Numbered from the stretch's first letter, positions 1,076 to 54,927 are shown. The stretch is DNA of 64,000 bases from Coriobacteriaceae bacterium (GCA_030525945.1 JAUNDT010000003.1:37319-101318); one strand, 5' to 3'. The notes: generated by a model from the letters alone, not told the origin. Program-made: numbers and translations.

Positions 1076-1131
1076 GGTTCACAAGCGAACAAAACTTGCG
1101 AGATTCGAAAAGTTTTGTTCGTTCGTGAACC
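1076..1131. repeat. Imperfect palindrome, copy 1 (22-bp arms)
   Basis: ggttcacaagcgaacaaaactt...aagttttgttcgttcgtgaacc; a related copy lies at 2606-2661. Confidence 0.85.
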
Positions 1132-26893: not shown

Positions 26894-27094
26894 GCGCGTT
26901 GCCTGCGGGGCTTGCCCAGCGGTTTGGTTGCCGGGTTCATACACGGCGGCGACTCATGTGCAGCGGCGCCCTGAGATTTGCGGCTCAGCCCCGGCGATTG
27001 CGGCGCCGCGGCTCATAGCCTGGCACCCGCCGCTCCTTTGAGGCTCTATGGTCCATAGCCCGGCACCTGCCGTTCCTTTGAAGAAGGGTTAACG

Positions 27095-28159
27095 ATGATT
27101 GACGAGACGAGAAACGCCTCCCCTGTCCCGCCTGCGGGATGCCCGAATGAGGACGGTGCGGAGGACCATACGTTCTTGGACGGGCTTGAATCGCAAGGGC
27201 CGGTCGGGTTGGGTCATAAGGTCAAGTGGATCGCCGCGATGGCGGGCGTCTTTTTGCTGTTCATAGTGGTGCAGGTAGCGGCTCTGCCGACGCTTCGGGG
27301 CCTTTCGGCGGGGTTCCATGCAATTCGAGAGGCGGAGACCTACGCGCTCGAAACAGGAGAGGCTCCTTCAGAGGCGGAGATCGCGCGGCTGCAGGAAGAA
27401 GGCCTGCAGTCCTCGCTTGATTCCTCCTCGGTTGAGGGACAGATGGTTGAGGCGTCCGCGCAGCTCGTGGTGCTCGGCGTGATGTATCTGATGTGGCATC
27501 GGGTGCGCAAACGCGGATTCGTGCCGCCGCGGGCCCCGGGGTTTTCCAAGCGTACGGTGTACAGGATCTTTGCGGGTCTTGCGATTGCGGGCATGGGTTT
27601 TCAATTTACTTGCTCGACGTTGCTCACCTTGATTGTACCGTTTTTTGAAGGGGCGTTTGCGGAGTACGATGCGCTTATGCAGCCTGCCGTTGGCGATGCG
27701 GCTTACGTCGAGTTCATATCGATTGTGATCCTCGCTCCGGTCCTTGAGGAGATGTGCTGCCGCGGCGTTATGCTCGAGTTCGGCTTGCGCGCTTTGCGCC
27801 CATGGAGCAGCAGGACGGGCGCTTGCGGCGTCGATGTCCCGTCTAAGGCCTTTTGGCTCGCCAACTTTTTGCAGGCGTCTGCTTTTGCAGTGCTGCATCT
27901 CAATGTGATACAGGGGTCCTATGCGCTGGTTTTGGGTATGGTGTTCGGTTATGTGTACTGGCGTACGGGCAAGTTGCGGTACCCGATAGCCCTGCATGCC
28001 GCGGTTAATGCAAGCTCGTATCTTATAAACGTGCCGGCAAGTATGTTGCCGCCGCGTCTTTCTATTCTTGCCATCGGCGTTCTCGGGATTGCACTTCTGG
28101 CGCTTGCGTGGCGCTTGCTTAAGTCCATATTGGCAACGCAGCCCAGCCGCGGCGTGTAA
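27095..28159 (+). CDS. CPBP/Abi-family intramembrane glutamic endopeptidase
   Basis: APVLEEMCCRG, FAVLH and IALHAAVN; multiple TM segments. Confidence 0.85.
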   Translation: MIDETRNASPVPPAGCPNEDGAEDHTFLDGLESQGPVGLGHKVKWIAAMAGVFLLFIVVQVAALPTLRGLSAGFHAIREAETYALETGEAPSEAEIARLQEEGLQSSLDSSSVEGQMVEASAQLVVLGVMYLMWHRVRKRGFVPPRAPGFSKRTVYRIFAGLAIAGMGFQFTCSTLLTLIVPFFEGAFAEYDALMQPAVGDAAYVEFISIVILAPVLEEMCCRGVMLEFGLRALRPWSSRTGACGVDVPSKAFWLANFLQASAFAVLHLNVIQGSYALVLGMVFGYVYWRTGKLRYPIALHAAVNASSYLINVPASMLPPRLSILAIGVLGIALLALAWRLLKSILATQPSRGV

Positions 28160-28189
28160 TTCGACTTCGCGCGCCGCACCGATACGCTT

Positions 28190-28293
28190 GCATATGCGTG
28201 GCATTGCAGGCTCGGGCATATGCGCGGCGCTGCAGGCCCGGACAGATGCGTTGCGCTGCAGGTCCGGGCATATGCCCGGTTCTGCAGGCTCGG
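28190..28293 (+). repeat. Four tandem 26-bp degenerate repeats
   Basis: Units such as gcatatgcgcggcgctgcaggcccgg start at 28190, 28216, 28242 and 28268. Confidence 0.85.
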
Positions 28294-28410
28294 TTTCATT
28301 CTGCGGTCCCCGCATACTGGATTACAACGGCTCTCGCGCGCCAGATTATGGGGTGCTCTGCATCGAATCCAAGTGTTGTACTGTGCCGGGCCCAAAGGCT
28401 GCTTGCGTAA

Positions 28411-28693
28411 TTTGGCCATTTGGGCACACCCTTCGTCCTGAAAAGCGAACCACCCCCGCATTGGGGCTGGTTCGGGGCCTCGTAGAAAAAACCTCCCCTA
28501 TATTGGGGGTGGTTTCGGGGCCTTAAAGCGCGAAGACGCCTGTTGGCAAAAGCGCCGACAGGCGTTTTAACGGCGGCGGTCGGGAGTGAGCGCTCCATAT
28601 AAGGCAAAACCTCCCCCAATATAGGGCAGGTTTCTTTTCGGACCCCGAAAACCTCCCCCAATGAAGGGGTAGTTTTCGCTATCGGGAATCCGG
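28411..28693 (+). repeat. 283-bp mosaic palindromic repeat (BIME-like), left copy
   Basis: Four aaaacctcccc...ggggtggttt-type hairpins around a central acgcctgttggc...gccgacaggcgt hairpin; direct copy at 35298. Confidence 0.92.
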
Positions 28694-28778
28694 GAAGACC
28701 GCTCGCCGAAGAATTCTTGCATACATAACATAGCGTTCTATATTTAGTACGAAGTATTCAATGGCATGGATGGTGACA

Positions 28779-30026
28779 ATGCGGCTCGCCTCTCACATCG
28801 TGCGATTCAGCTTGCGGGGGATCCCCGTGGTCGGCAACACGGCTTCGGGCGCCCTGGTGGGCCTTACGCCGGAAGGCGCCGCGCTGTGCGACGCCATGAT
28901 GGAGCGTGAGGTCACTCAAAACGAGGTCCCCGCACGCTGCGAGGAGCTCGTGGCGTATCTTGCAGACCATGGGTTCACGGACGAACTCGAGCCGGATGCG
29001 CGCGTTCGCCTTGCGTCCGCATATCTGCATGTGACGAACGCCTGCAACCTCTCGTGCGTTGGGTGCTACTCTGCAGACTGCAACCGCAATCGAGCTGGCG
29101 ATCCATCGTTTGGTCAGCTTTCCCGCGCCATTGACGTGCTTGCCGAACTTGGCGTGAGCAAGTTGGTTATATCTGGCGGAGAGCCCTTTCTTCGCTCGGA
29201 TCTGCCCGATATCGCGTGCCATGCGCGTGCTGCGGGCATGAACTGCGTGACTATTCTCACGAACGGCACGCGATGCGATGACGGCGTCCTTTCGCGCCTG
29301 CAGGGCAATGTAGACGTCATCTCGGTCTCTTTTGACGGGGTGTCCCGGCAAAGTCCCGCCCACGTTCGTTCCGAGCAGCTGTTCGATGTGCTCGTCGACA
29401 CGGTCGGGCGCATTCAGGCAGCTGACATCCATGCCCATATTCTGCCCACGCTGCACGCTCGGAATATCGATGACGTCCCCGCCTATCTCGATCTTGCGGA
29501 CGCGTTGGGCTGCACTGTTGGGTTCAGTCTGCTGAGCGGGTCGAGCACCGACCTCGGTGATTTGATGCCGAGGGAGGCGTGCTTGGCGGAACTTGCGAGC
29601 ATCATGTTCAAGGCAGCATCGGAGGGCGGGTCGGCGAGTTTGAACGATGCCTTTAATCCCGCGGGCGCGCTGAGCGTTTGCGCCGTTTGCGGAGCCGCCC
29701 GTTCCTCGGTGAGTGTGGCCTCGGATGGTGTTGTGTATCCCTGCCACATGCTTCATAAGCCGGAGCTCGCGTTGGGCAATGCGTTCGAGGACGATGCATC
29801 TGCCATTGCTGAGCGCATCTCCCTGTGCGAGCTGCCGCTGGTCGATGAGATCAAGGGCTGCTCGCAATGCGAAAACCGATATCTATGCGGAGGAGGTTGC
29901 AGGGCTCGAGCGCTCGACGAGTGCGGCAGCATGGCTGAACGCGACCCATATTGCACGTACTACCGTCATGCGATCGACCGCACTGTTGAGGCGTTTATAA
30001 GGGGAGGCCAGAGAGGGGAGGGGTAA
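28779..30026 (+). CDS. Radical SAM/SPASM protein with an N-terminal RRE/PqqD-like segment (putative peptide maturase)
   Basis: CNLSCVGC, SGGEPF, CAVCGA...DGVVYPC and CSQCENRYLCGGGC...DPYC. An alternative start lies at 28761. Confidence 0.85.
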   Translation: MRLASHIVRFSLRGIPVVGNTASGALVGLTPEGAALCDAMMEREVTQNEVPARCEELVAYLADHGFTDELEPDARVRLASAYLHVTNACNLSCVGCYSADCNRNRAGDPSFGQLSRAIDVLAELGVSKLVISGGEPFLRSDLPDIACHARAAGMNCVTILTNGTRCDDGVLSRLQGNVDVISVSFDGVSRQSPAHVRSEQLFDVLVDTVGRIQAADIHAHILPTLHARNIDDVPAYLDLADALGCTVGFSLLSGSSTDLGDLMPREACLAELASIMFKAASEGGSASLNDAFNPAGALSVCAVCGAARSSVSVASDGVVYPCHMLHKPELALGNAFEDDASAIAERISLCELPLVDEIKGCSQCENRYLCGGGCRARALDECGSMAERDPYCTYYRHAIDRTVEAFIRGGQRGEG

Positions 30027-30122
30027 GATGTTGTTCGTTGTTGAGATTAAGGCTGACAGCTTATCGGGCTGCTTGGATATTCTTGGTGTCCGAATTGGAG
30101 CATAAGAGTGACGGGGGGTCAC

Positions 30123-30608
30123 ATGGACCGATTATCTGAGAAAAGAATGGTGGCTTTGCTTAGGCTGCTCAATCTGGTTTTCGTGGCAGTTGTTTGCTTT
30201 TTGATATTTGAATTGACCTCTGGGGTTATTGCCCTTTTGGGAGTCGGGGCCAACAGCGACATGGCGCCCTTTGTGGCCAATAAGATTGTGGATGGGGCGC
30301 TTGCCGCAATTCCGCTCTTGGTTTTTGCTCGGTTTGTTCGTTCCGTGACTCGTCGCAAGGAGTTTTTCTCTCGGGTTCAGAGCAGGCGAGTGCTGACAAT
30401 CGCTATCTGCCTTGGCGCGCGCGTCGCTCTTGGCCTGTTCACCCCGTCAATCGAGGTCCCGGCCCTGCTCGAGGGGGCGATCGGCGCTGAGTCGCTCGGG
30501 CCGTCGTTAAACCTCACGTCGCTCGCAATCGCGCTCATGTTCTTTGCGCTAGCTGGTGTTTTTGAGTACGGTAGGAAACTGCAGGAAGATTCCGATAACA
30601 TCCTGTGA
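30123..30608 (+). CDS. DUF2975-like membrane protein
   Basis: Four hydrophobic segments ending in GVFEYGRKLQEDSDNIL, directly upstream of a small XRE gene (the typical pairing). Confidence 0.7.
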   Translation: MDRLSEKRMVALLRLLNLVFVAVVCFLIFELTSGVIALLGVGANSDMAPFVANKIVDGALAAIPLLVFARFVRSVTRRKEFFSRVQSRRVLTIAICLGARVALGLFTPSIEVPALLEGAIGAESLGPSLNLTSLAIALMFFALAGVFEYGRKLQEDSDNIL

Positions 30609-30643
30609 CATCCATGTAAAACGTTTAGAGGGAGGACAGCCGA

Positions 30644-30889
30644 ATGCCCATTGTCATGCGACTCGACCGCGTTATGGCAGATCGGAAGATGTCCTCCCTC
30701 GAACTTGCCGAGAAGGTCGGCATCTCGCCCGTCAACATCTCCCGCATCAAGACCGGCCGCCTCAAGGGCATCCGCTTCTCCACGCTCGAGGCGATGTGCG
30801 AGGCGCTCCACTGCAAGCCCGGCGACATTATCGACTGGATGGACGACGAGGAGTACATCGAGGCGTTCGGGTCGCTGCCTGAGGCGTAG
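30644..30889 (+). CDS. XRE/Cro-family HTH regulator
   Basis: MPIVMRLDRVMADRKMSSLELAEKVGIS..NISRIKTG...IRFSTLEAMCEAL.CKPGDI. Confidence 0.88.
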   Translation: MPIVMRLDRVMADRKMSSLELAEKVGISPVNISRIKTGRLKGIRFSTLEAMCEALHCKPGDIIDWMDDEEYIEAFGSLPEA

Positions 30890-31014
30890 CGAGGCTGCGA
30901 ACCCGCAGTAATCCGCCTGTCGCTTGAAACATACCGCTCATGGAAAATTAAATATACAATATAAAATATTATTTAAAATACGAATAAAGCAGGGAAGGGA
31001 TTAAGGAGGTTCCC

Positions 31015-31407
31015 TTGAAAGTGTTTAAGACTTTCAAGGCCAAGGCTGTTTTGCTTAGCCTGCTTGTCGTCATGGCATGCGGGTTCAGCGGGGCGGCTTA
31101 CGCGACTTCTCATAGCTTCGGCTATACGCTTCCTGGTTTCCAGGAGAACGTTACGGTTCAGGCCGGATCTCGTGCGAGCGGTTCTCCCTCTGCTGGCGTA
31201 TCCGTTAGCAGCGGCGGACCTCGTAAGCTCTGGCTCTGGTGCGATGCACCCAGCATCGGGACGCGTCTCACCAACTCTGTTCTGGTCACGAGCAACAGCT
31301 ACTACACCCTGTCGTACTATAACCGCAACGCCGGCAGTGTATACCTGCGCGGTTGTACGGATGGTTGGCAGGAGCCCAATTACATCAGCGGGCGTGTGAC
31401 CTTCTAG
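31015..31407 (+). CDS. Small secreted protein (Sec signal; bacteriocin-like cassette gene)
   Basis: TTG start after aaggaggt and an AT-rich promoter region; signal peptide ending AYA; ~100-aa mature part rich in S/G/Y with 2 Cys. Confidence 0.65.
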   Translation: MKVFKTFKAKAVLLSLLVVMACGFSGAAYATSHSFGYTLPGFQENVTVQAGSRASGSPSAGVSVSSGGPRKLWLWCDAPSIGTRLTNSVLVTSNSYYTLSYYNRNAGSVYLRGCTDGWQEPNYISGRVTF

Positions 31408-31514
31408 GTTTCTCACTCGCTGGTCTAGCGAGCCAATCTCTTCCCTGCTCCAATCGTTTACTTCGTTTATCTGATAATGGAACTCCCAAATTATGAATGC
31501 GCGGGAGGTGCAGA

Positions 31515-32360
31515 ATGTCCACGGTGGCCCTTATCCGAGTGTTTTTTATCCGCGCGTTCAGAAGAACGGAATGCAAGATCGCCATTACGGCAACCGCGCT
31601 GTGCTGCCTTATTGCTTTTACGGAGACGTGCCTAAGGTTTTACGGCGCTGATGTGGGCGAGCTTCCATCGGCGGCATACGCTTGGGCATGGAATATGGAT
31701 GCCATGCAGGTGAATGCCTCTCGTGTGTATCTGTTCTTTGTCATGCCGGTTGCAGGCGCAATGGTTTTTTCAGATACCGCACGCTGTGATTTGAAGTCCG
31801 GGTGCACGTGCCTGCTTGCATCTCGAACTTCAATCGCACGTTGTATCTGCGCTTACGGTTTCATGAGTTTTGCCGGGGCGTTTTTGTTGACGCTTGTCGC
31901 CTTGGCGCTCCTGCAGCTTCTCGCTTTCGTTGCGTTTCCCCTCAGTGGTACATTCGAAGGTTATCTGGGCATGCCCATGTATTTGGACCTGCGTACGACG
32001 GGTGGCTTGCTTGTTGGACTGTGGGAGAGTCAGCCTTACATTTACAATTTGGTCTTTGCGTTTGCGGCGGCGACATGGGCGGGAGGTTCGGCTCTCTTGT
32101 CATTCGCTTTGGGTTTGTTCATGAGGCGCAACAAGGCTGCCCTGGTGCTTCCCGCCGCAATATCGCTTGCTGCATTTGTTATACTCCCGCTCATCGCCCC
32201 TGGTTCAGTTGAATATCTTCACTTTGCCGCGGTCTATCCTGAGGTGAACGATCAAGCATTGAGTTTGGCTCGTTTTGTGCTGACCCCCTGCGTCTGCTTG
32301 ATTCCAGCGCTTTGCCTAATGTGTTTGGCATGCGCGCGCGGGAGGGATTTGCTGTTATGA
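31515..32360 (+). CDS. ABC-2-type permease-like membrane protein
   Basis: About six TM segments; ggaggt RBS; translationally coupled to the next gene. Confidence 0.65.
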   Translation: MSTVALIRVFFIRAFRRTECKIAITATALCCLIAFTETCLRFYGADVGELPSAAYAWAWNMDAMQVNASRVYLFFVMPVAGAMVFSDTARCDLKSGCTCLLASRTSIARCICAYGFMSFAGAFLLTLVALALLQLLAFVAFPLSGTFEGYLGMPMYLDLRTTGGLLVGLWESQPYIYNLVFAFAAATWAGGSALLSFALGLFMRRNKAALVLPAAISLAAFVILPLIAPGSVEYLHFAAVYPEVNDQALSLARFVLTPCVCLIPALCLMCLACARGRDLLL

Positions 32361-33079
32361 CATCGTGGCTGTACATTCATCTTAAGCGCAACAAGCAGCT
32401 GTGGTTGGCTATTGCCGTGCTTTTGGGGTGTCGTGTGTTGCAGGCCATCGCACTGGGGAGGTCCCGCGTTGGCCCCGACGCGCTTTTTGCCTCATACGTT
32501 TCCATCAATGCTGTGGATTTCGCAGCGTTCCTGTTCATCCCTTTGTTTTGTATGGGTCAGATGAGGGGGCTGCGGCTGTACGCCTCACCGCAGGGCGCCC
32601 TCTTTTTGGGTAGCCGCAATCGGGTGACACTCCGCGTGGTAGCAGACTGTCTGTCCAGTGGATTGCTTGCGGCGCTGCTATTGCAAATATCTTCCTTTTG
32701 CGTGCTGGCGAGCCATTTTGGGGTGAGTGCCTCATGGGGCTTGATTCGCCCGCTTGACACTATTCTGCAGGGCATTGTTTTGGGAAATGCTGGACTCGTG
32801 AGCTTCGCTGCCATGATCGTATTTCATTCGTCGGCATTTTCCTGCTTGTTGGGCATTCTGTATGGAATGTGGGATTTCATGGCGATGAACATTGTAGGCG
32901 GGGGTGTGCCTTCAATCGGATGGAGCTTGGCAATTGCTCCGATTGATGCCGATTTTGGTTTTCTCTTCCTAAGGGCGGCGACTTTAGTGTCCGTTGCACT
33001 TGTATTAGGCGTCGCATCATGGCTTGCGATCGATAGGGCCGATTATCTTGATTTTGATAAAGGATCAAGCAAAGTTTAA
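32357..33079 (+). CDS. Second ABC-2-type permease-like membrane protein
   Basis: Hydrophobic; ATGA overlap with the previous gene; precedes an ABC ATPase. Confidence 0.62.
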   Translation: MTSWLYIHLKRNKQLWLAIAVLLGCRVLQAIALGRSRVGPDALFASYVSINAVDFAAFLFIPLFCMGQMRGLRLYASPQGALFLGSRNRVTLRVVADCLSSGLLAALLLQISSFCVLASHFGVSASWGLIRPLDTILQGIVLGNAGLVSFAAMIVFHSSAFSCLLGILYGMWDFMAMNIVGGGVPSIGWSLAIAPIDADFGFLFLRAATLVSVALVLGVASWLAIDRADYLDFDKGSSKV

Positions 33080-33089
33080 CGGTTTATGA

Positions 33090-33773
33090 GTGAAAGAGAC
33101 CGTGATGAATGAGCATAAAGACGGAACCGTATCGCGCGTCCCCGGCGTCATCGTTTCCGGTGTGTCAAAAACCATCAAGGGCAACCGTGTTCTGGATGGC
33201 ATCAATGCCGTGTTTCCTGCAGCTCGCATCAGCGGGATACGAGGGCATAACGGATCGGGAAAAACGATGCTTTTGCGAGCGATCGCCGGTCTAATCTCTG
33301 TGGATGAGGGATCGATTGAGGTGTTCGGACAAACGCTTGGCCGAGGCGGCTTTCCAAAGGGTCTTGGATATATGATCGAGCCGCTTGAACTCTGGGAAGA
33401 GTTCACAGGGTCCGAGATGCTGCTGATGCTTTCATCATTGCGGGAAAAGCCCGATCGGCATCGAGTCGACGATGTGCTCGTTCGAGTGGGGCTGAATCCA
33501 GATGATGTCCGCAGGATTAAAAGTTACAGCCTCGGCATGAGGCGGCGCTTGAATCTTGCTCAGGCGCTGATGGGCAACCCTTGCTTGCTTCTGCTCGATG
33601 AGCCCACCAACGCGCTGGATGAAAATGGCCAGGAGGCAATGAGCCGAGTGCTTATCGATGAGCGCAATCGCGGAACCACGATCATCGTGGTGTCTCACGA
33701 TCGAGAGGAGCTCGACAGGATTGCCGATATCCAGTTCATCATGAGCGAGGGCAGGCTGCGGGAGGTGCGGTGA
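33090..33773 (+). CDS. ABC transporter ATP-binding protein
   Basis: GHNGSGKT, YSLGMRRRL and LLLDEPTNALD. Confidence 0.92.
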   Translation: MKETVMNEHKDGTVSRVPGVIVSGVSKTIKGNRVLDGINAVFPAARISGIRGHNGSGKTMLLRAIAGLISVDEGSIEVFGQTLGRGGFPKGLGYMIEPLELWEEFTGSEMLLMLSSLREKPDRHRVDDVLVRVGLNPDDVRRIKSYSLGMRRRLNLAQALMGNPCLLLLDEPTNALDENGQEAMSRVLIDERNRGTTIIVVSHDREELDRIADIQFIMSEGRLREVR

Positions 33774-33774
33774 G

Positions 33775-34479
33775 ATGAAAGCAAGAATCCGTTTCCCGTG
33801 GTACTTGACCTGGGGCTTGATGCTCGTCGCCGCGCTCGGCGTGGGTCTCGTCACTCGTTTGAGCTACGCGGATGTTTCTGCTCATCCCGAGGAGCTTTAT
33901 GGCATGACGTATCAAGTGGCCCCTTTCTCAACGGAAGAATTTAATAGATACGCGGAGGGTGTGGGGGACCCCGGTACGAAGCGGGCCCTGATGGATGCAG
34001 AGGCTGTTGTGCGGGTGCGCAGAAAAGGACTGCCCGTGTATCGCTATAAGGCTTTTACGACAAATGTGCATATCGATGAAGTGCTGCGTGGTGACGAAGC
34101 GCTTGCGGGAACATCCATCAATGTGTATGAACCCGTTTCTATGAATAAGCGCGGGAGCGAAAAAGTCCTGACGGCAGCGGACGCGTACCAGTTTGGATCT
34201 GTTCCCATGCGAGATGATGACGAGTACATTTTGTTCCTCAATTCAGCCCCGAAAAACCGTGTGGTCGGCGATGCGTGGACGCTTGCGGTGTCTCCGTTTT
34301 CAAAACTCGTTGTGAACGGGAGCCCTAGATGTGTTGTTCATTCAGGTTTGGACGGAGGTCTGCGCAGGGCGGATTTGCTGGATGCGGACATGGTTGCTGA
34401 GAGCCGGGAAGACAGGGATGCGTATCTCAGGGAGTGCGCCGACGTTGTAAGGGGGCTTGGTATGAACGATGAGAATTGA
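33775..34479 (+). CDS. Membrane-anchored hypothetical protein
   Basis: One N-terminal TM helix; coupled to the ATPase gene. Confidence 0.6.
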   Translation: MKARIRFPWYLTWGLMLVAALGVGLVTRLSYADVSAHPEELYGMTYQVAPFSTEEFNRYAEGVGDPGTKRALMDAEAVVRVRRKGLPVYRYKAFTTNVHIDEVLRGDEALAGTSINVYEPVSMNKRGSEKVLTAADAYQFGSVPMRDDDEYILFLNSAPKNRVVGDAWTLAVSPFSKLVVNGSPRCVVHSGLDGGLRRADLLDADMVAESREDRDAYLRECADVVRGLGMNDEN

Positions 34480-34539
34480 CATCGGGAATGTGCGTTGCTT
34501 TGTTGAGATTGGTGACGATTGTCAGGTTGGGAGGATGCG

Positions 34540-35043
34540 ATGTCAGCACAGTACTGTCTGACGTATTCTCAGGATGAGCTGAGCATCCAAGATGAGAATC
34601 TTGGTCTGGCTTTGCGGGTCGAGAAGCGTGGCGCTTCCAAGGCTTTGGGCCAGTTGTTCACGCGTCGCTTTGTGGTGTTCGGCGTGGATGGCGAGCGCTT
34701 GTTTCAGGTAATCGATGGCAATTCCGGAACGCTTCCGCGTGCGTCATTGAAGTTTGACAAGTGCGAGGTGCTTGTTCTTACTGCCGGCGGTGGCCACTTT
34801 GCTGTGAACTGCCTGGTGAATGACAGCGACTACACATTCTCGGGCGATCCGTTTTCGGCGGAGTTCTCCGTTGTTATCGATGGGGAGGCGCTCTCGGACG
34901 TTTCTGTCAAGCGAGGCGGTGGTAAGGCGGAGTATCGGTTCGCGGTTTCCGATGACACCAAGGCGGTCCAGGTGCTCGCGGTTGTTTCGACGCTCGCCGT
35001 GTTCAGGGGCAGGATCATACCCTGCATTGAATCGGACGAGTAA
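34540..35043 (+). CDS. Hypothetical protein (beta-rich, possibly LURP-one/tubby-C-like)
   Basis: ggagg RBS; alternating beta-strand pattern; hydrophobic C-terminal helix AVQVLAVVSTL. Confidence 0.5.
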   Translation: MSAQYCLTYSQDELSIQDENLGLALRVEKRGASKALGQLFTRRFVVFGVDGERLFQVIDGNSGTLPRASLKFDKCEVLVLTAGGGHFAVNCLVNDSDYTFSGDPFSAEFSVVIDGEALSDVSVKRGGGKAEYRFAVSDDTKAVQVLAVVSTLAVFRGRIIPCIESDE

Positions 35044-35297
35044 GGGCAGGCGGCTTTTGCCGGAGTGATGACGAAGACGCTGCCGTAAAGGTCGGGCTCC
35101 TCGCGTTTGCGGGGAGCCCGACTGCGTTTACCGGGTCCCGCCGCGGGGCAAGTCAACCGCGTCCTCGAGCGGATCATTGCGCTCGCCGAGCTTGACTGGA
35201 TGGGGGAGGCCGCGTAAGTTCGACTTGAGGGCGATTCTAGGCCGAGGGACCTACACCACTTTCCGCGACGCTACCGTCCAAAAGAACGCTCGCTCAG

Positions 35298-35580
35298 TTT
35301 GGCCATTTGGGCGCGCTTCTCTCCCCAAAAAGCAAATCACCCCCGCATTGGGGCTGGTTCGGGGCCTCTGAGAAAAAACCTCCCCTATATTGGGGGTGGT
35401 TTCGGGTCCTTAAAGCGCGAAGACGCCTGTTGGCAAAAGCGCCGACAGGCGTTTTAATGGCGGCGGTCGGGAGTGAGCGCTCCATATAAGGCAAAACCTC
35501 CCCCAATATAGGGCAGGTTTCTTTTCGGACCCCGAAAACCTCCCCCAATGAAGGGGTGGTTTCCGCTACCGGGGATCCGG
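35298..35580 (+). repeat. 283-bp mosaic palindromic repeat (BIME-like), right copy
   Basis: Direct repeat of 28411-28693. Confidence 0.92.
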
Positions 35581-35764
35581 TCCTACTCGTCCGCCTCGTA
35601 GAGCAGCTCGTGCCCGTCATTAACGGCTGGCTGCTATGGAGGGCTTCGCGGCGCCTAACGTGCGCCTAGCGTGCATTCATGCAGAATGTACGCTCCCTTG
35701 CGATTTAAGACGGGCCCACTGGGTTGCTCCAGCGGGCCCTTTGCATGCGCAGGTTGCCAGTTTG

Positions 35765-38203
35765 TTAGTGCCGGTTCGCTCCCTGCCGGCCTTGGGCGGC
35801 GCGGTTGCGCGCGTGCGGGTTCGTGCCTGCGGCGCTCTTGCCGGTGGCGCGTCCGCCGGGTTTGCCGGGGTTGGGGCGCCCGTTCTGTTTGGCTCCCACC
35901 CGTCCGCTTGACGTGGATGCGCCCTTCTTTCCGGAGCGTGCCTCAGCGCGGCGCTCGGCGCGATTTTGGGGCTGCGATGCAGCGGTGTCTTCATGCCCGT
36001 GCCCGCCTCGGCTCGTCTTCGGCTCCGGCCGCTGTGCGCGCCCATTGCTGCGCTTGCCTGTCATACTCGTGCCGTTAAGCTTGCCGCCGCCTGCGCCCGG
36101 CTTGGGCGGCACCGGCTTGATCAGGCACTTCGCCCCGTAGCCGATCAGGTCCTCGCGCCCGGCCTTCCTCAGCGCCTCCTTCACCAGCTTGTAGTTCTCC
36201 GGTTTGCGGTATTGGATCAACGCGCGCTGCATGGCCTTCTCGTGCGGGTCGCGCGGGATGTAGACGGGCTGCATGGTGCGCGGGTCCACGCCGGTGTAGA
36301 ACATGCAGGTGCTCATAGTCGACGGCGTGGGGTAGAAGTCCTGCACCTGCTCGGGCATGTAGCCCATGTCGCGCACGGCCTCGGCCAGCTCCACGGCCTC
36401 CTTCATGGTGGAGCCCGGGTGGCTCGAGATGAGATAGGGAACCACGTACTGTTTGAGGCCGTATTCCGCCGAGAGCCGCTCGAAGCGTTCGACGAACGCG
36501 TCGTAGACCTCGCGGCGCGGTTTGCCCATCACCGAGAGCACCGCGTCGCTCACGTGCTCGGGCGCCAGGCGCAGCTGGCCGCTCACGTGGTGCTGCAGCA
36601 GCTCCACCAAAAACTTGTCGGAGGCGTCGGCCATGGTGTAGTCAAAGCGAATGCCGCTGCGCACGAAAACCTTCTTCACGCCGGGAAGCTGCCGTAGGTC
36701 GCGCAGCAGTTCGGCATAGGCGTCCTCGTTCGTGTCCATGTTGCGGCACACACTCGGCCACAGGCACCTGCGGTTCTTGCAGACGCCGTGCGTGAGCTGC
36801 TTTTTGCACGCGGGTTTGAAGAAGTTCGCCGTGGGGCCGCCCACGTCGTTGATATAGCCCTTGAACTCTGGGTCTTGCGTGAGGGTCTTTGCCTCGCGGA
36901 TGATGCTCTCGCGGCTGCGGACCTGCACCATGCGGCCCTGATGGAACGCCAGCGCGCAAAACGAGCACTCGCCAAAGCACCCGCGGTTGCTCGAGATGGA
37001 AAAGCGGATCTCGTCAAAGGCGGGGATGCCGCCCGCCGCGTCGTAATCAGGGTGCCAGTGGCGCGCGTAGGGAAGCTCCGCCACCTCGTCCATCTCGGCT
37101 TGCGTGAGGGGTGCCGCAGGCGGGTTTTGCACCACGTAGACGCCGTTCGGATAGGGCTCCACCAGGCGCCTGCCCGTGATGGGGTCCATGTTCTGCTGCT
37201 GCGTGTTGAATGACCGCGCGTAGTTGAGGCGGTCCTCCTCGAGCTCGTCCCAGCTGGGGAGCATGTCGTAATCGTACACGTTCGCCAGCGCGTCCGCCCC
37301 GCTCGTGCGGTACACCGACCCATTCACAAAGGTGATTTGGTCGACGGGCAGCCCGCCTGCCAGCGCGTCGGCGACCTCCACGATGGAGTGCTCGCCCATG
37401 CCGTAGAGCAGGATGTCGGCGCCGGAGTCGAGCAAAACCGAGCGCTTGAGCTTGTCTTGCCAGTAGTCGTAGTGGGCGAGGCGGCGCAGGCTCGCCTCGA
37501 TGCCGCCGATGATGATAGGCTTGTGCTTGTACACGCTGCGGATGAGGTTGCCGTACACGGTGACGGCGCGGTTGGGGCGCGCGCCCGCGCGGCCGCCGGG
37601 GGTGTAGGCGTCCTCGTGGCGCGGCTTTTTGTTCACGGTGTAGTGGTTCACCATGGAGTCCATGTTGCCGGCCGAGACGAGAAAGCCCAGGCGCGGCTCG
37701 CCCAGCGCCTGGATGCTCTTGGGGTCGCGCCAGTCAGGCTGGCAGATGATGCCCACACGGTAGCCGTGCGCCTCGAGCACGCGGGAGATGATGGCCATGC
37801 CAAAGCTGTGGTGGTCCACATAGGCGTCACCGCAGATGTAGACGAAGTCACAGGCGTCCCAGCCGCGCGCATCCATGTCCGCGCGGGAGACGGGCAGAAA
37901 CGCCTCGCGTCCCGGGCGCCCTTTGGTGCCGGGGCAACGCGCGGGGACGGATGCGATGGCGCGCCTGGAGGTGGGAGCGGCGTTTTTGGGCGTGGTGGCC
38001 GATGCACGCTTGGGGGCGGCGTGTCCAGATGCGGTCGAGGTTCCGTGCTTTTGGGCGGTCGTTTCCGCCTTCTTGGATGTGTTGGCGCCGGCGCGTGCGG
38101 ATGCGGGTTTTCGCGTGCGATCGCCGGGGTTGGTGCCGCCGGGTTGCGTTGCCGGCGCCTGGCGTGCTGTTGAGGGCTGCTTTTTTGCGGGGTGCTTCGA
38201 CAT
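35765..38203 (-). CDS. YgiQ/UPF0313-family radical SAM protein with low-complexity basic tails
   Basis: GDAYVDH, GNMDSMVNHY, GGIEASLRR, RGCFGECSFC, APEH and QVQDFYPTP. The start is uncertain (ORF track gives 38326). Confidence 0.9.
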   Translation of the reverse strand: MSKHPAKKQPSTARQAPATQPGGTNPGDRTRKPASARAGANTSKKAETTAQKHGTSTASGHAAPKRASATTPKNAAPTSRRAIASVPARCPGTKGRPGREAFLPVSRADMDARGWDACDFVYICGDAYVDHHSFGMAIISRVLEAHGYRVGIICQPDWRDPKSIQALGEPRLGFLVSAGNMDSMVNHYTVNKKPRHEDAYTPGGRAGARPNRAVTVYGNLIRSVYKHKPIIIGGIEASLRRLAHYDYWQDKLKRSVLLDSGADILLYGMGEHSIVEVADALAGGLPVDQITFVNGSVYRTSGADALANVYDYDMLPSWDELEEDRLNYARSFNTQQQNMDPITGRRLVEPYPNGVYVVQNPPAAPLTQAEMDEVAELPYARHWHPDYDAAGGIPAFDEIRFSISSNRGCFGECSFCALAFHQGRMVQVRSRESIIREAKTLTQDPEFKGYINDVGGPTANFFKPACKKQLTHGVCKNRRCLWPSVCRNMDTNEDAYAELLRDLRQLPGVKKVFVRSGIRFDYTMADASDKFLVELLQHHVSGQLRLAPEHVSDAVLSVMGKPRREVYDAFVERFERLSAEYGLKQYVVPYLISSHPGSTMKEAVELAEAVRDMGYMPEQVQDFYPTPSTMSTCMFYTGVDPRTMQPVYIPRDPHEKAMQRALIQYRKPENYKLVKEALRKAGREDLIGYGAKCLIKPVPPKPGAGGGKLNGTSMTGKRSNGRAQRPEPKTSRGGHGHEDTAASQPQNRAERRAEARSGKKGASTSSGRVGAKQNGRPNPGKPGGRATGKSAAGTNPHARNRAAQGRQGANRH

Positions 38204-38319
38204 GGCTGAGGTCTTTCTGGTCTGATAGGCCGTTTCGCACTTTGAAGGCATTTTACATCGACACAAGGTGCGGCTCGCGCACCGGGCGGTGGGGGCGCCA
38301 CTTCCCGCCGGTGAAGCTT

Positions 38320-38448
38320 GGTGCACTTTCAGAAAACTCGGAGCACTTTCAAAAACTTAGTGCGCTTTTCGACCATTATTCGCTTTCAGAATGGTTAAAA
38401 AGTGCACCGACTTTTGGAAAGGTGCTCCGAGTTTGGGAGAGGCGCACC
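38320..38448. repeat. ~130-bp AT-rich imperfect inverted repeat
   Basis: ~58-bp arms ggtgcactttcagaaaactcggagcac...gaccatt / aatggt...gtgctccgagtttgggagaggcgcacc around a 12-nt loop. Confidence 0.8.
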
Positions 38449-54884: not shown

Positions 54885-54890
54885 TCCCAA

Positions 54891-54927
54891 AATGCGTCAT
54901 TTAGGGTCAGACCCTAAATGACGCATT
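54891..54927. repeat. Perfect 18-bp-arm palindrome
   Basis: aatgcgtcatttagggtc-a-gaccctaaatgacgcatt. Confidence 0.9.

What the first reader, a model, noticed from the sequence alone, without database searches (positions are those of the whole stretch)
28411..35580. 6.6-kb cargo island bounded by 283-bp BIME-like direct repeats, with no recombinase
Seen: the two copies are the same length and differ at only about 8 positions over their last ~240 bp (manual count), diverging more in the first ~40 bp. Each is a mosaic of four related hairpins (two in each orientation) around a central GC-rich hairpin. The enclosed genes look A/T-richer than neighbouring housekeeping genes. Established: REP/BIME mosaics are mobilised by RAYT HUH transposases and promote amplification or deletion. 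Inference: a composite element formed by two non-autonomous repeats, able to excise, amplify or swap cargo.
Basis: partly seen in the sequence, partly recalled or inferred. Interest (0 to 1): 0.65.

Follow-up and report, generated by a model that had tools for sequence, protein, structure and literature searches.

The report
Twin hairpin repeats flanking a gene cluster
Two near-identical copies of a species-specific palindromic repeat do flank a 6.6-kb gene cluster in this Collinsella genome, but the closest relatives carry the same cluster in the same place without the repeats, so the repeats arrived later and did not bring the genes in.

Summary
Two gap-free 283-bp direct repeats (28411-28693 and 35298-35580) differ at 19 positions, 8 of them in the last 240 bp. 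Each is two hairpins, a 92-nt centre and the two hairpins inverted. They enclose 6,604 bp of low-GC genes.

The repeat belongs to a family with 17 loci in this 1.88-Mb genome. I found it in no other genome, metagenome, plasmid or phage collection. It is REPIN/BIME-like, but the only RAYT-like gene here is flanked by a different 41-nt palindrome family.

Eight contigs from the sister clade (YgiQ core about 93% identical; 100/100 support) carry the same cluster in the same FolB-CPBP...ygiQ slot. The cluster is radical-SAM/SPASM, DUF2975, HTH, a secreted protein and an ABC transporter. It has the same low GC there and no flanking repeats. Homology to these relatives starts 6 nt after the left repeat. 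A remnant of a cluster-associated gene lies outside the right repeat.

The repeats are therefore late colonists of the two borders.

The parts
27095..28159 (+). CPBP (Rce1-like) intramembrane protease gene on the left side of the slot. It is fast-evolving and co-varies with the cluster.
   Evidence: PF02517, E = 3.6e-17. Amino-acid identity is 53% to cluster-bearing L124 and 37-40% to L121/L127, but only 30-35% to cluster-less congeners. GC3 is 0.69.
28191..28293 (.). 26-nt tandem repeat, about 4 copies, just downstream of CPBP.
   Evidence: families D2/D3. Relative L127 has a 20-nt tandem repeat in the equivalent place.
28411..28693 (.). Left copy of the 283-bp hairpin-mosaic repeat. Sub-parts: outer degenerate hairpin remnant 28411-28425; hairpins 28448-28472 and 28490-28514; centre 28515-28605 with GC hairpin 28533-28568 followed by TTTT; inverted hairpins 28606-28633 and 28648-28676; tail 28677-28693.
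28699..28757 (+). Conserved promoter region of the radical-SAM gene (TTGCAT 28717-28722, 16 nt, TATATT 28739-28744). Nucleotide homology to sister-clade relatives begins here, 6 nt after the left repeat ends.
   Evidence: blastn to L121-L128 at 75-83% identity. Relatives' sequences are printed. The hexamers were read and are not tool-called (the scan found no consensus promoter).
28761..30026 (+). Radical SAM/SPASM peptide-maturase-like gene (database product is 415 aa, starting at 28779).
   Evidence: PF04055, PF13186 and PF13353. Best NCBIfam hits are all below their cut-offs. About 70% identical homologues sit in the same slot in relatives.
30108..30608 (+). DUF2975 membrane protein gene.
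   Evidence: PF11188. 55-59% identical in relatives.
30644..30889 (+). 81-aa XRE-type HTH regulator gene.
   Evidence: HTH_3/HTH_26 on the relatives' orthologues. 93-99% identical to relatives.
31015..31407 (+). 130-aa gene for a protein with a hydrophobic, signal-peptide-like N-terminus (predicted secreted).
   Evidence: ORF. 78% identical in L121/L127. No family hit.
31497..33079 (+). Two membrane (permease-like) genes, 31497-32360 and 32312-33079.
   Evidence: ORFs. No Pfam hit. Orthologues in relatives.
33090..33773 (+). ABC transporter ATPase gene.
   Evidence: PF00005, E = 2.2e-25. Nearest NCBIfam is the lantibiotic-protection ABC, below cut-off.
33775..35043 (+). Two accessory genes of unknown function: 33775-34479 (234 aa) and 34519-35043 (174 aa).
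   Evidence: Orthologues: p231/p232 in L121/L127 (55-57%) and p167 in L124 (79%).
35298..35580 (.). Right copy of the 283-bp repeat, with the same sub-parts at +6887.
35607..35654 (+). Remnant (last 16 codons) of a small membrane-protein gene (p90). It is intact next to the cluster in relatives and lies outside the repeat-bounded interval here.
   Evidence: tblastn LVPVINGWLLWRASRR against LVLAINAWLLWRAFRK, E = 9e-4. blastn to L124/L125 gives 84% over 37 nt. Absent from the cluster-less congener loci.
35765..38326 (-). ygiQ-family radical SAM gene on the right side of the slot (core gene).
   Evidence: TIGR03904, 842 bits. Used for the tree.

Best explanation
The 6.6-kb segment is an old, low-GC accessory gene cluster. 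It contains a radical-SAM/SPASM maturase-like gene, DUF2975, an HTH regulator, a secreted protein, a two-permease ABC transporter and two unknown genes. The Collinsella stercoris-like clade, to which this genome belongs, carries it in a genus-wide variable slot between FolB-CPBP and ygiQ.

The two 283-bp repeats did not bring the cluster in. They are the youngest pair of a species-restricted, REPIN/BIME-like hairpin-mosaic family (17 loci). They came to occupy the two intergenic borders after the cluster was already in place.

The pair is near-identical because one border copy was recently templated from the other, 6.9 kb away. I think this was most likely non-reciprocal homologous copying (gene conversion or template switching between family members) and not a transposase-driven insertion. 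This step is inferred.

Today the pair gives 283 bp of direct homology, with a longest perfect block of 99 nt. RecA could use it to delete the cluster, leaving one hybrid repeat, or to amplify it. Each copy also places a strong terminator-like hairpin on the coding strand at a cluster border. Both consequences are inferred and not shown.
For: The cluster pre-dates the repeats:
1. The same cluster, in the same order, lies between FolB-CPBP and ygiQ in 8 contigs recovered through three protein clusters. L124/L125 carry a partial version.
2. Flanking core genes are 84-99% identical (OadA, OadB, FolB). Cluster genes are 54-79% identical and the HTH 93-99%.
3. In a YgiQ-core maximum-likelihood tree, this genome and all cluster-bearing loci form a clade with 100/100 support. 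Identity is 92.7-93.8% within the clade, against 76.5-83.5% for 20 cluster-less congeners.
4. The cluster has low GC3 (0.56-0.69) against flanks of 0.85-0.95 in the relatives too. Low GC therefore does not indicate recent arrival here.

The repeats are private to this genome:
5. The relatives have no hairpin-family sequence and no flanking direct repeats.
6. The family is absent from 60 relatives, from about 185,000 species genomes, from JGI metagenomes, and from viral contigs, plasmids and phages.

The repeats lie inside the ancestral accessory region:
7. Homology to relatives starts at 28699, 6 nt after the left repeat.
8. A p90 remnant lies right of the right repeat.

The pair is the youngest in the family:
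9. Centre identity is 0.98 for the pair. The next-best pair is 0.71, the family mean is 0.41 and shuffled centres give 0.32.
10. The other 15 copies are old, and none belongs to the left/right subfamily.

No transposase is at hand:
11. There is one Y1/RAYT-like gene, and it is flanked by another palindrome family.

The history is mosaic or conversion-like:
12. Fifteen of the 19 mismatches lie in the outer 63 nt (binomial P = 2.5e-7).
Against: 1. No conspecific genome or read-level data could be examined. The order of events rests on between-species comparison only.
2. The left and right copies share a 15-nt outer block and a 17-nt tail that lie outside the family consensus. This is easier to explain by duplication of a whole 283-nt unit than by conversion between two independent old insertions.
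3. The cluster-bearing relatives are metagenome contigs. Their whole genomes could not be searched for the repeat family.
4. Cluster genes are more diverged than the flanks (54-79% against 84-99%). Replacement of the cluster by horizontal transfer within the clade is therefore not excluded.
Confidence: 0.7

Rival explanations
1. Composite mobile element. Two non-autonomous REP/BIME-type repeats, mobilised in trans by a RAYT/HUH transposase, move the enclosed 6.6 kb as cargo and inserted it between CPBP and ygiQ.
For: Direct near-identical repeats bound a low-GC gene set. The family is dispersed in the genome. Congeners have empty sites and other cargo in the slot. A RAYT-like gene exists in the genome.
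Against: Sister-clade relatives have the same cluster in the same slot without the repeats. Empty sites carry no repeat copy. Ancestral accessory DNA continues outside both repeats. The RAYT-like gene is flanked by a different 41-nt palindrome with about 42 copies. There is no second copy of the cluster or of the left/right subfamily. No target-site duplication was seen.
Confidence: 0.04
2. Campbell-type integration. A circular DNA carrying the cluster plus one repeat copy recombined with a resident repeat copy in the CPBP-ygiQ spacer, leaving one hybrid copy at each end.
For: This mechanism yields direct repeats flanking the insert without any recombinase gene inside. The mosaic mismatch pattern could reflect hybrid copies. 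In relatives the small gene p90 lies upstream of the cluster in L124 but downstream in L121, a circular permutation that hints at circle or duplication intermediates in the clade's history.
Against: The donor would need the repeat family, which is found in no other genome. The cluster already sits in this slot throughout the sister clade without repeats. Conserved promoter homology begins immediately after the left repeat, and a p90 remnant follows the right repeat. Both fit in-situ ancestry.
Confidence: 0.06
3. The cluster is ancestral, as in the best explanation, but the two copies are fresh duplicative insertions (a local hop) of a still-active element, driven by a trans-acting HUH/RAYT-like enzyme and not by gene conversion.
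For: The whole 283-nt unit is shared, including an outer block and a tail outside the family consensus. Both copies are in the same orientation, as expected for single-strand transposition on one replichore. The unit folds into a long single-stranded DNA hairpin like a REPIN. Congeners carry 2-4 RAYT-like paralogues and this genome has one. A homologue in G040 is flanked by palindromes sharing the ATTGGGG/CCCCAAT core.
Against: No cognate enzyme gene is flanked by these hairpins. No other young copy exists among the 17 loci. Mismatches are strongly clustered, including a fully replaced 15-nt spacer. The right copy is associated with loss of most of p90, not with a clean insertion.
Confidence: 0.2
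4. Host-selected border elements. The copies are kept because they act as terminators or insulators that isolate the cluster's transcription from CPBP and from convergent ygiQ. This is compatible with any origin.
For: The centre hairpin (15 bp, -27 kcal/mol) with a T-run lies on the coding strand downstream of CPBP and downstream of the last cluster gene. All 17 family loci are intergenic, six of them between convergent genes. Geometry is rigid at 27-15-27-92-27-15-27 nt, and a 14-nt motif sits at a fixed place despite near-saturated centres. This argues for some constraint.
Against: The simple terminator scan did not call the centre hairpin, because it has only 4 T. Other family members lack this centre hairpin. 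There are no expression data.
Confidence: 0.15

Closest known systems
REPINs (REP doublets forming hairpins) dispersed by RAYT transposases (Bertels & Rainey 2011, PMC3116915; PMC3337134; PMC5581495)
   Same: Extragenic location. Two inverted arms made of palindromes. The spacer is less conserved than the arms but constant in length. The whole unit is predicted to form one long hairpin in single-stranded DNA. The family is private to one lineage.
   Different: Each arm holds two (sometimes three or four) 27-nt hairpins, not one REP. The spacer is 92 nt and has a conserved internal 14-nt motif. There are only 17 loci, at 77-84% arm identity, with no master sequence. No RAYT gene is flanked by these hairpins. 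The single RAYT-like gene in this genome serves a different 41-nt palindrome family.
BIMEs of enterobacteria (mosaics of alternating REPs with linker motifs)
   Same: A mosaic of palindromic units in alternating orientation with fixed-length linkers. Located in intergenic 3' regions.
   Different: Unrelated sequence. No GTAG-type conserved tetranucleotide was identified. Copy number is far lower. The host is an actinobacterium (Coriobacteriia).
Composite transposons and MITE-bounded translocatable units
   Same: Two copies of a short repeat in direct orientation bracket several kilobases of accessory genes.
   Different: No transposase and no target-site duplication. The bracketed genes are syntenic with relatives that lack the repeats. 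There is no evidence that the unit ever moved.
Accessory-gene hot spots (variable slots between conserved core genes)
   Same: The CPBP-ygiQ interval is empty in 17 of 20 congeners examined and holds a beta-glucoside PTS/GH1/AraC cassette in three. In the C. stercoris-like clade it holds the radical-SAM/ABC cluster plus variable toxin-antitoxin genes (HipBA, Fic).
   Different: Hot spots need no flanking repeats. Here the repeats are an added, genome-specific feature.

Membership tests
REPIN / RAYT system | Two inverted REP-containing arms separated by a spacer, predicted to form a hairpin in single-stranded DNA | tested here: met
   Arms 28448-28515 and 28607-28674 are 76% complementary with 91 nt between them. 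The single-stranded DNA fold is one long hairpin, z = -8.1.
REPIN / RAYT system | Spacer less conserved than the arms, with its length conserved | tested here: met
   Arm hairpins have 77-84% mean pairwise identity. Centres have 41% (shuffled 32%). Centre length is 92-93 nt in 15 of the 16 loci parsed correctly; one is 102 nt and one locus was mis-parsed.
REPIN / RAYT system | A single-copy RAYT gene flanked by the same REP sequences | tested here: not met
   The only PF01797 hit is at C2:99269-100015 (35 bits; NF047646 scores 56 bits, below its cut-off of 80). It is flanked by a different 41-nt palindrome. No family hairpin lies within 60 kb of it.
REPIN / RAYT system | A population of many near-identical copies around a master sequence | tested here: not met
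   17 loci. Only the left/right pair is near-identical. The other copies are at most 74% alike over the whole unit.
BIME (REP mosaic) | Extragenic palindromic units in alternating orientation with fixed linkers | tested here: met
   All 17 loci are intergenic. The layout is 27-15-27-92-27-15-27 nt.
BIME (REP mosaic) | High copy number (hundreds) and sequence relationship to enterobacterial REP (GTAG motif) | tested here: not met
   About 74 hairpins in 17 loci. There is no Rfam match. The hairpin sequence AAACCTCCCC-TATATTG-GGGGAGGTTT bears no visible resemblance to enterobacterial REP as I recall it (from memory, no REP sequence was compared).
Composite transposon / mobile cargo island | Transposase or recombinase acting on the flanking repeats | tested here: not met
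   No such domain was found in the enclosed or adjacent genes.
Composite transposon / mobile cargo island | The cargo is absent from the orthologous site of close relatives, or present elsewhere together with the repeats | tested here: not met
   Sister-clade loci have the cargo at the same site without repeats. There is only one copy of the cluster in the genome.
Composite transposon / mobile cargo island | Circular or excised forms, and empty sites within the species | not testable with these tools
No conspecific sequences are in the protein collection.
MITE | Terminal inverted repeats plus a target-site duplication and a parent IS with the same ends | tested here: inconclusive
   The 68-nt inverted arms are present. 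No conserved flanking duplication is visible in the 17-copy alignment. No long ORF is bounded by the hairpins. A full IS survey was not done.
Integrative island (attL/attR) | Integrase gene and short att core duplicated at both ends, often in a tRNA gene | tested here: not met
   No integrase was found. The repeat is a 283-nt member of a dispersed family, not a unique att core.

The most novel reading that the evidence does not exclude
The hairpin-mosaic family may be a previously undescribed kind of structured intergenic element in Coriobacteriia. It would be an orphan, REPIN-like unit with rigid geometry (27-15-27-92-27-15-27 nt) and a fixed central motif (ACAAAACCGCAGGA). It would be maintained by selection and still be copied without a cognate transposase. 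The left/right pair would then be a recent copying event that has made a whole peptide-modification and transport cluster conditionally deletable or amplifiable.
Probability: 0.15. Interest if true: 0.55.

Novelty: new member of a known kind. Interest (0 to 1): 0.3.

Why it matters
A pair of repeats around low-GC genes looks like a mobile island. Here, comparison with the sister clade shows the genes were there first and the repeats came later. This is a useful caution for repeat-bounded 'islands' in general.

Two points remain of modest interest. First, this small Collinsella genome holds at least two unrelated palindromic repeat families: a RAYT-associated one with about 42 near-identical copies, and an older one with no such gene. 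This phylum is not among the groups covered by the REPIN papers I consulted (Pseudomonas, Escherichia, Haemophilus). Second, the cluster is now bracketed by 283 bp of direct homology, so it could be lost or amplified at appreciable frequency. That could be tested in culture or in deep sequencing data.

Tried and rejected
1. Rfam scan of 27000-37000 at E <= 1: no match.
2. Exact-pattern scans for the hairpins in about 185,000 species genomes (two patterns), JGI metagenomes and viral contigs, plus blastn against plasmids and phages: nothing.
3. Search for conspecific contigs. Exact look-ups of five window proteins found single-member clusters, apart from Logan contigs of one run that are 100% identical to the window. 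No strain-level empty site could be tested.
Junction reads, circles and depth could not be examined.
5. Whole-record search of the sister-clade contigs for the repeat: the records are not held.
6. Idea that repeat pairs generally bracket cassettes. Three pairs lie within 10 kb of each other among the 17 loci (C23, C22, C15), against about 1.4 expected by chance (my estimate). The C22 and C15 pairs are not similar in their centres, and the C15 pair encloses genes with core-like GC3. Rejected.
7. Idea that hairpin arms insert around pre-existing host DNA. At the orthologous RlmKL-Kup spacer of a C. stercoris-like relative, the conserved Kup leader aligns, but nothing matches the element's centre. 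A different palindrome pair sits there. Not supported, though the distal spacer is unalignable in any case.
8. Stem covariation. The hairpins mostly keep a conserved T.T mismatch in mid-stem and show few compensatory changes. This did not help decide between mechanisms.
9. Homologous radical-SAM modules in G014 and G040 (48-55% identity) lie elsewhere in those genomes, with native GC and no flanking repeats.

Full report
OBSERVATION

The window holds two direct repeats, at 28411-28693 and 35298-35580.
- An ungapped comparison gives 283 nt, no indel and 19 mismatches.
Eleven lie in 28426-28450, where one whole 15-nt inter-hairpin spacer differs.
- Similarity ends abruptly after 28693. The longest perfect block is 99 nt.
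- Each copy has this layout: an outer degenerate hairpin remnant; two 25-27-nt hairpins (loops GCATTG and TATATTG); a 92-nt centre holding a 15-bp GC-rich hairpin followed by TTTT (-27.7 kcal/mol as RNA); and the two hairpins again in inverted order.
- As single-stranded DNA the unit folds into one long hairpin (-73 kcal/mol, z = -8.1).
- The 6,604 bp between the copies is 52-57% GC, against 63-68% outside. GC3 is 0.58-0.70 against about 0.85.
- Independent Logan contigs of one run are 100% identical to the window and break inside the repeat core. This fits a true duplication.

WHAT THE REPEAT IS

The window lies on contig C23 of a 1.88-Mb, 23-contig genome. The best named match of a neighbouring core protein (Kup, 93%) is Collinsella stercoris.

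The repeat belongs to a family with 17 loci in this genome.
- Oriented by a central motif, all copies share a rigid plan: hairpin (27 nt), 15-nt spacer, hairpin (27 nt), 92-93-nt centre with ACAAAACCGCAGGA at a fixed position, hairpin, 15-nt spacer, hairpin. Some copies have a third or fourth outer hairpin.
- Hairpins average 77-84% pairwise identity. Centres average 41% (shuffled 32%).
- The left/right pair is the exception, with a centre identity of 0.98. The next-closest pair has 0.71.
- All loci are intergenic.
- The family has no Rfam match. It was found in none of 60 relatives, including 36 congeners. It was also absent from about 185,000 species genomes, JGI metagenomes, viral contigs, plasmids and phages.
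- At one orthologous spacer (RlmKL-Kup) a C. stercoris-like relative has a different palindrome pair instead.

In architecture this is a REPIN/BIME-like element: inverted palindrome-bearing arms, a spacer constant in length but variable in sequence, and a single-stranded DNA hairpin (PMC3116915).

It fails the defining association with a RAYT gene.
- The only Y1/RAYT-like gene in the genome (C2:99269-100015; PF01797 35 bits; NF047646 56 bits, below its cut-off) is flanked by a different, perfect 41-nt palindrome. That palindrome has about 42 copies at 92-100% identity.
- Congeners carry 2-4 RAYT-like paralogues and this genome has one. A lost cognate enzyme is therefore conceivable, but this is inference only.

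WHAT THE ENCLOSED GENES ARE

In order, the genes are:
- a radical SAM/SPASM enzyme, whose best family models are peptide maturases, all below cut-off;
- a DUF2975 membrane protein;
- an 81-aa XRE-type HTH regulator;
- a 130-aa protein with a signal-peptide-like N-terminus;
- two membrane proteins;
- an ABC ATPase, nearest to lantibiotic-protection transporters;
- two proteins of unknown function.

No recombinase or transposase domain is present.

THE DECISIVE COMPARISON

Homologues of the radical-SAM protein at 67-71% identity are common in metagenome assemblies. I fetched eight contigs through three of these proteins.
- All eight place the radical-SAM-DUF2975-HTH module between FolB-CPBP and ygiQ. 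Six carry the full cluster; L124 and L125 carry a partial version.
- Flanking core genes are 84-99% identical to this genome. Cluster genes are 54-79% identical and the HTH 93-99%.
- Over the YgiQ core these relatives are 92.7-93.8% identical to this genome, while 20 cluster-less congeners are 76.5-83.5%. In a maximum-likelihood tree this genome and the cluster-bearing loci form one clade with 100/100 support.
- The cluster has the same low GC3 in the relatives (0.56-0.69 against 0.85-0.95).
- None of these loci holds the hairpin family or any flanking direct repeat.
- Nucleotide homology to the relatives starts at 28699, 6 nt after the left repeat, in the conserved promoter region of the radical-SAM gene.
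- To the right of the right repeat, 35607-35654 is the remnant of the last 16 codons of a small membrane gene (p90). That gene is intact beside the cluster in the relatives and absent from cluster-less loci.
- CPBP, left of the left repeat, is 53% identical to a cluster-bearing relative but only 30-35% to cluster-less congeners.

The accessory region inherited by this clade is therefore larger than the repeat-bounded interval. The repeats sit inside it, at positions where relatives hold other variable genes such as HipBA and Fic.

THE SLOT IN THE REST OF THE GENUS

- In 17 of 20 congeners examined, CPBP and ygiQ are adjacent and convergent, with no hairpin.
- Three congeners hold a 4.2-kb low-GC cassette there, with an AraC-like regulator, a GH1 phospho-beta-glucosidase and a PTS EIIBC. 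These names come from my reading of the translated sequences.
- None of 400 sampled species of the genus has a homologue above 55% identity.

The slot is a hot spot.

INTERPRETATION

The composite-element model is rejected (about 0.04).

The best-supported account (about 0.7) is as follows.
- The cluster is ancestral to the C. stercoris-like clade at this slot.
- A species-restricted hairpin family later came to occupy both borders.
- The two border copies are near-identical because one was recently copied from the other.

How the copying happened is unresolved.
- For homologous, non-reciprocal copying: no other young copy exists, no cognate enzyme is present, the copies are close together, and 15 of the 19 mismatches cluster in the outer 63 nt (P = 2.5e-7).
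- For duplication of a whole unit: a 15-nt outer block and a 17-nt tail are shared only by the left and right copies and lie outside the family consensus.
- The tail resembles the native sequence upstream of the radical-SAM promoter in relatives. This could mean the right copy was copied from the left together with a few flanking bases. The match is too short to rely on.

What the pair does now is inference.
- Its 283 bp of direct homology is ample for RecA-dependent deletion or tandem amplification of the cluster.
- Each copy puts a strong hairpin plus T-run on the coding strand at a cluster border.

LIMITS

- No conspecific genomes are available.
- The sister-clade records could not be searched in full.

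VERDICT

The feature is real and accurately described. It is a new member of the REP/BIME/REPIN kind of repeat, without a RAYT partner, sitting at the borders of an older accessory cluster. It is not a mobile cargo island. Interest is modest.

Noticed in passing
Own genome C2:99211-100115; one copy in the window at about 54886-54927: A second, unrelated REP family. It is a perfect 41-nt palindrome, AAAATGCGTCATTTAGGGTC-A-GACCCTAAATGACGCATTTT, with about 42 loci at 92-100% identity. Two copies flank the genome's only RAYT-like gene. This looks like a live REP-RAYT system in a Collinsella.
   Followed up: partly
window 1076-1131 and 2606-2661: A third palindrome family (GGTTCACAAGCGAACAAAACTT...AAGTTTTGTTCG..GTGAACC), in direct orientation around a single gene.
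   Followed up: no
window 28191-28293; L127:8226-8300: A 26-nt tandem repeat (about 4 copies) lies directly after the CPBP stop codon. A sister-clade relative has a 20-nt tandem repeat in the same position after its own CPBP.
   Followed up: no
window 30644-30889: The 81-aa HTH regulator is 93-99% identical to relatives, while the genes on either side are 54-79%. It also has GC3 of 0.89 in an otherwise low-GC3 cluster.
   Followed up: no
L124:9530-9826 compared with L121:16151-16423: The small membrane gene p90/p98 lies upstream of the radical-SAM gene in some relatives and downstream of the cluster in others. This is a circular permutation and suggests past duplication or circle intermediates at this slot.
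   Followed up: partly
L091, L096, L099 (congeners G013, G018, G024), between CPBP and ygiQ: An alternative 4.2-kb low-GC3 cassette occupies the same slot. It holds an AraC-like regulator, a GH1 phospho-beta-glucosidase and a PTS EIIBC, and has no flanking repeats.
   Followed up: partly
L136:5685-6000 (C. stercoris-like RlmKL-Kup spacer): The sister lineage has its own pair of palindromes (…CCCCGAGAGTTAACTCTCGGGG… and …CCCGCGAGAGTTAACTTTCGCGGG…) at the site where this genome has a hairpin-mosaic copy. The Kup leader downstream is conserved at roughly 80-90% (my estimate from the printed alignment).
   Followed up: no
L131 (G040:C49, flanks of a RAYT-like gene): A RAYT-like homologue (44% identical) in another family of the order is flanked by the palindromes TCTGTTAATTGGGGAC/GTCCCCAATTAACAGA. 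These share the ATTGGGG/CCCCAAT core with the hairpins of the family studied here.
   Followed up: no
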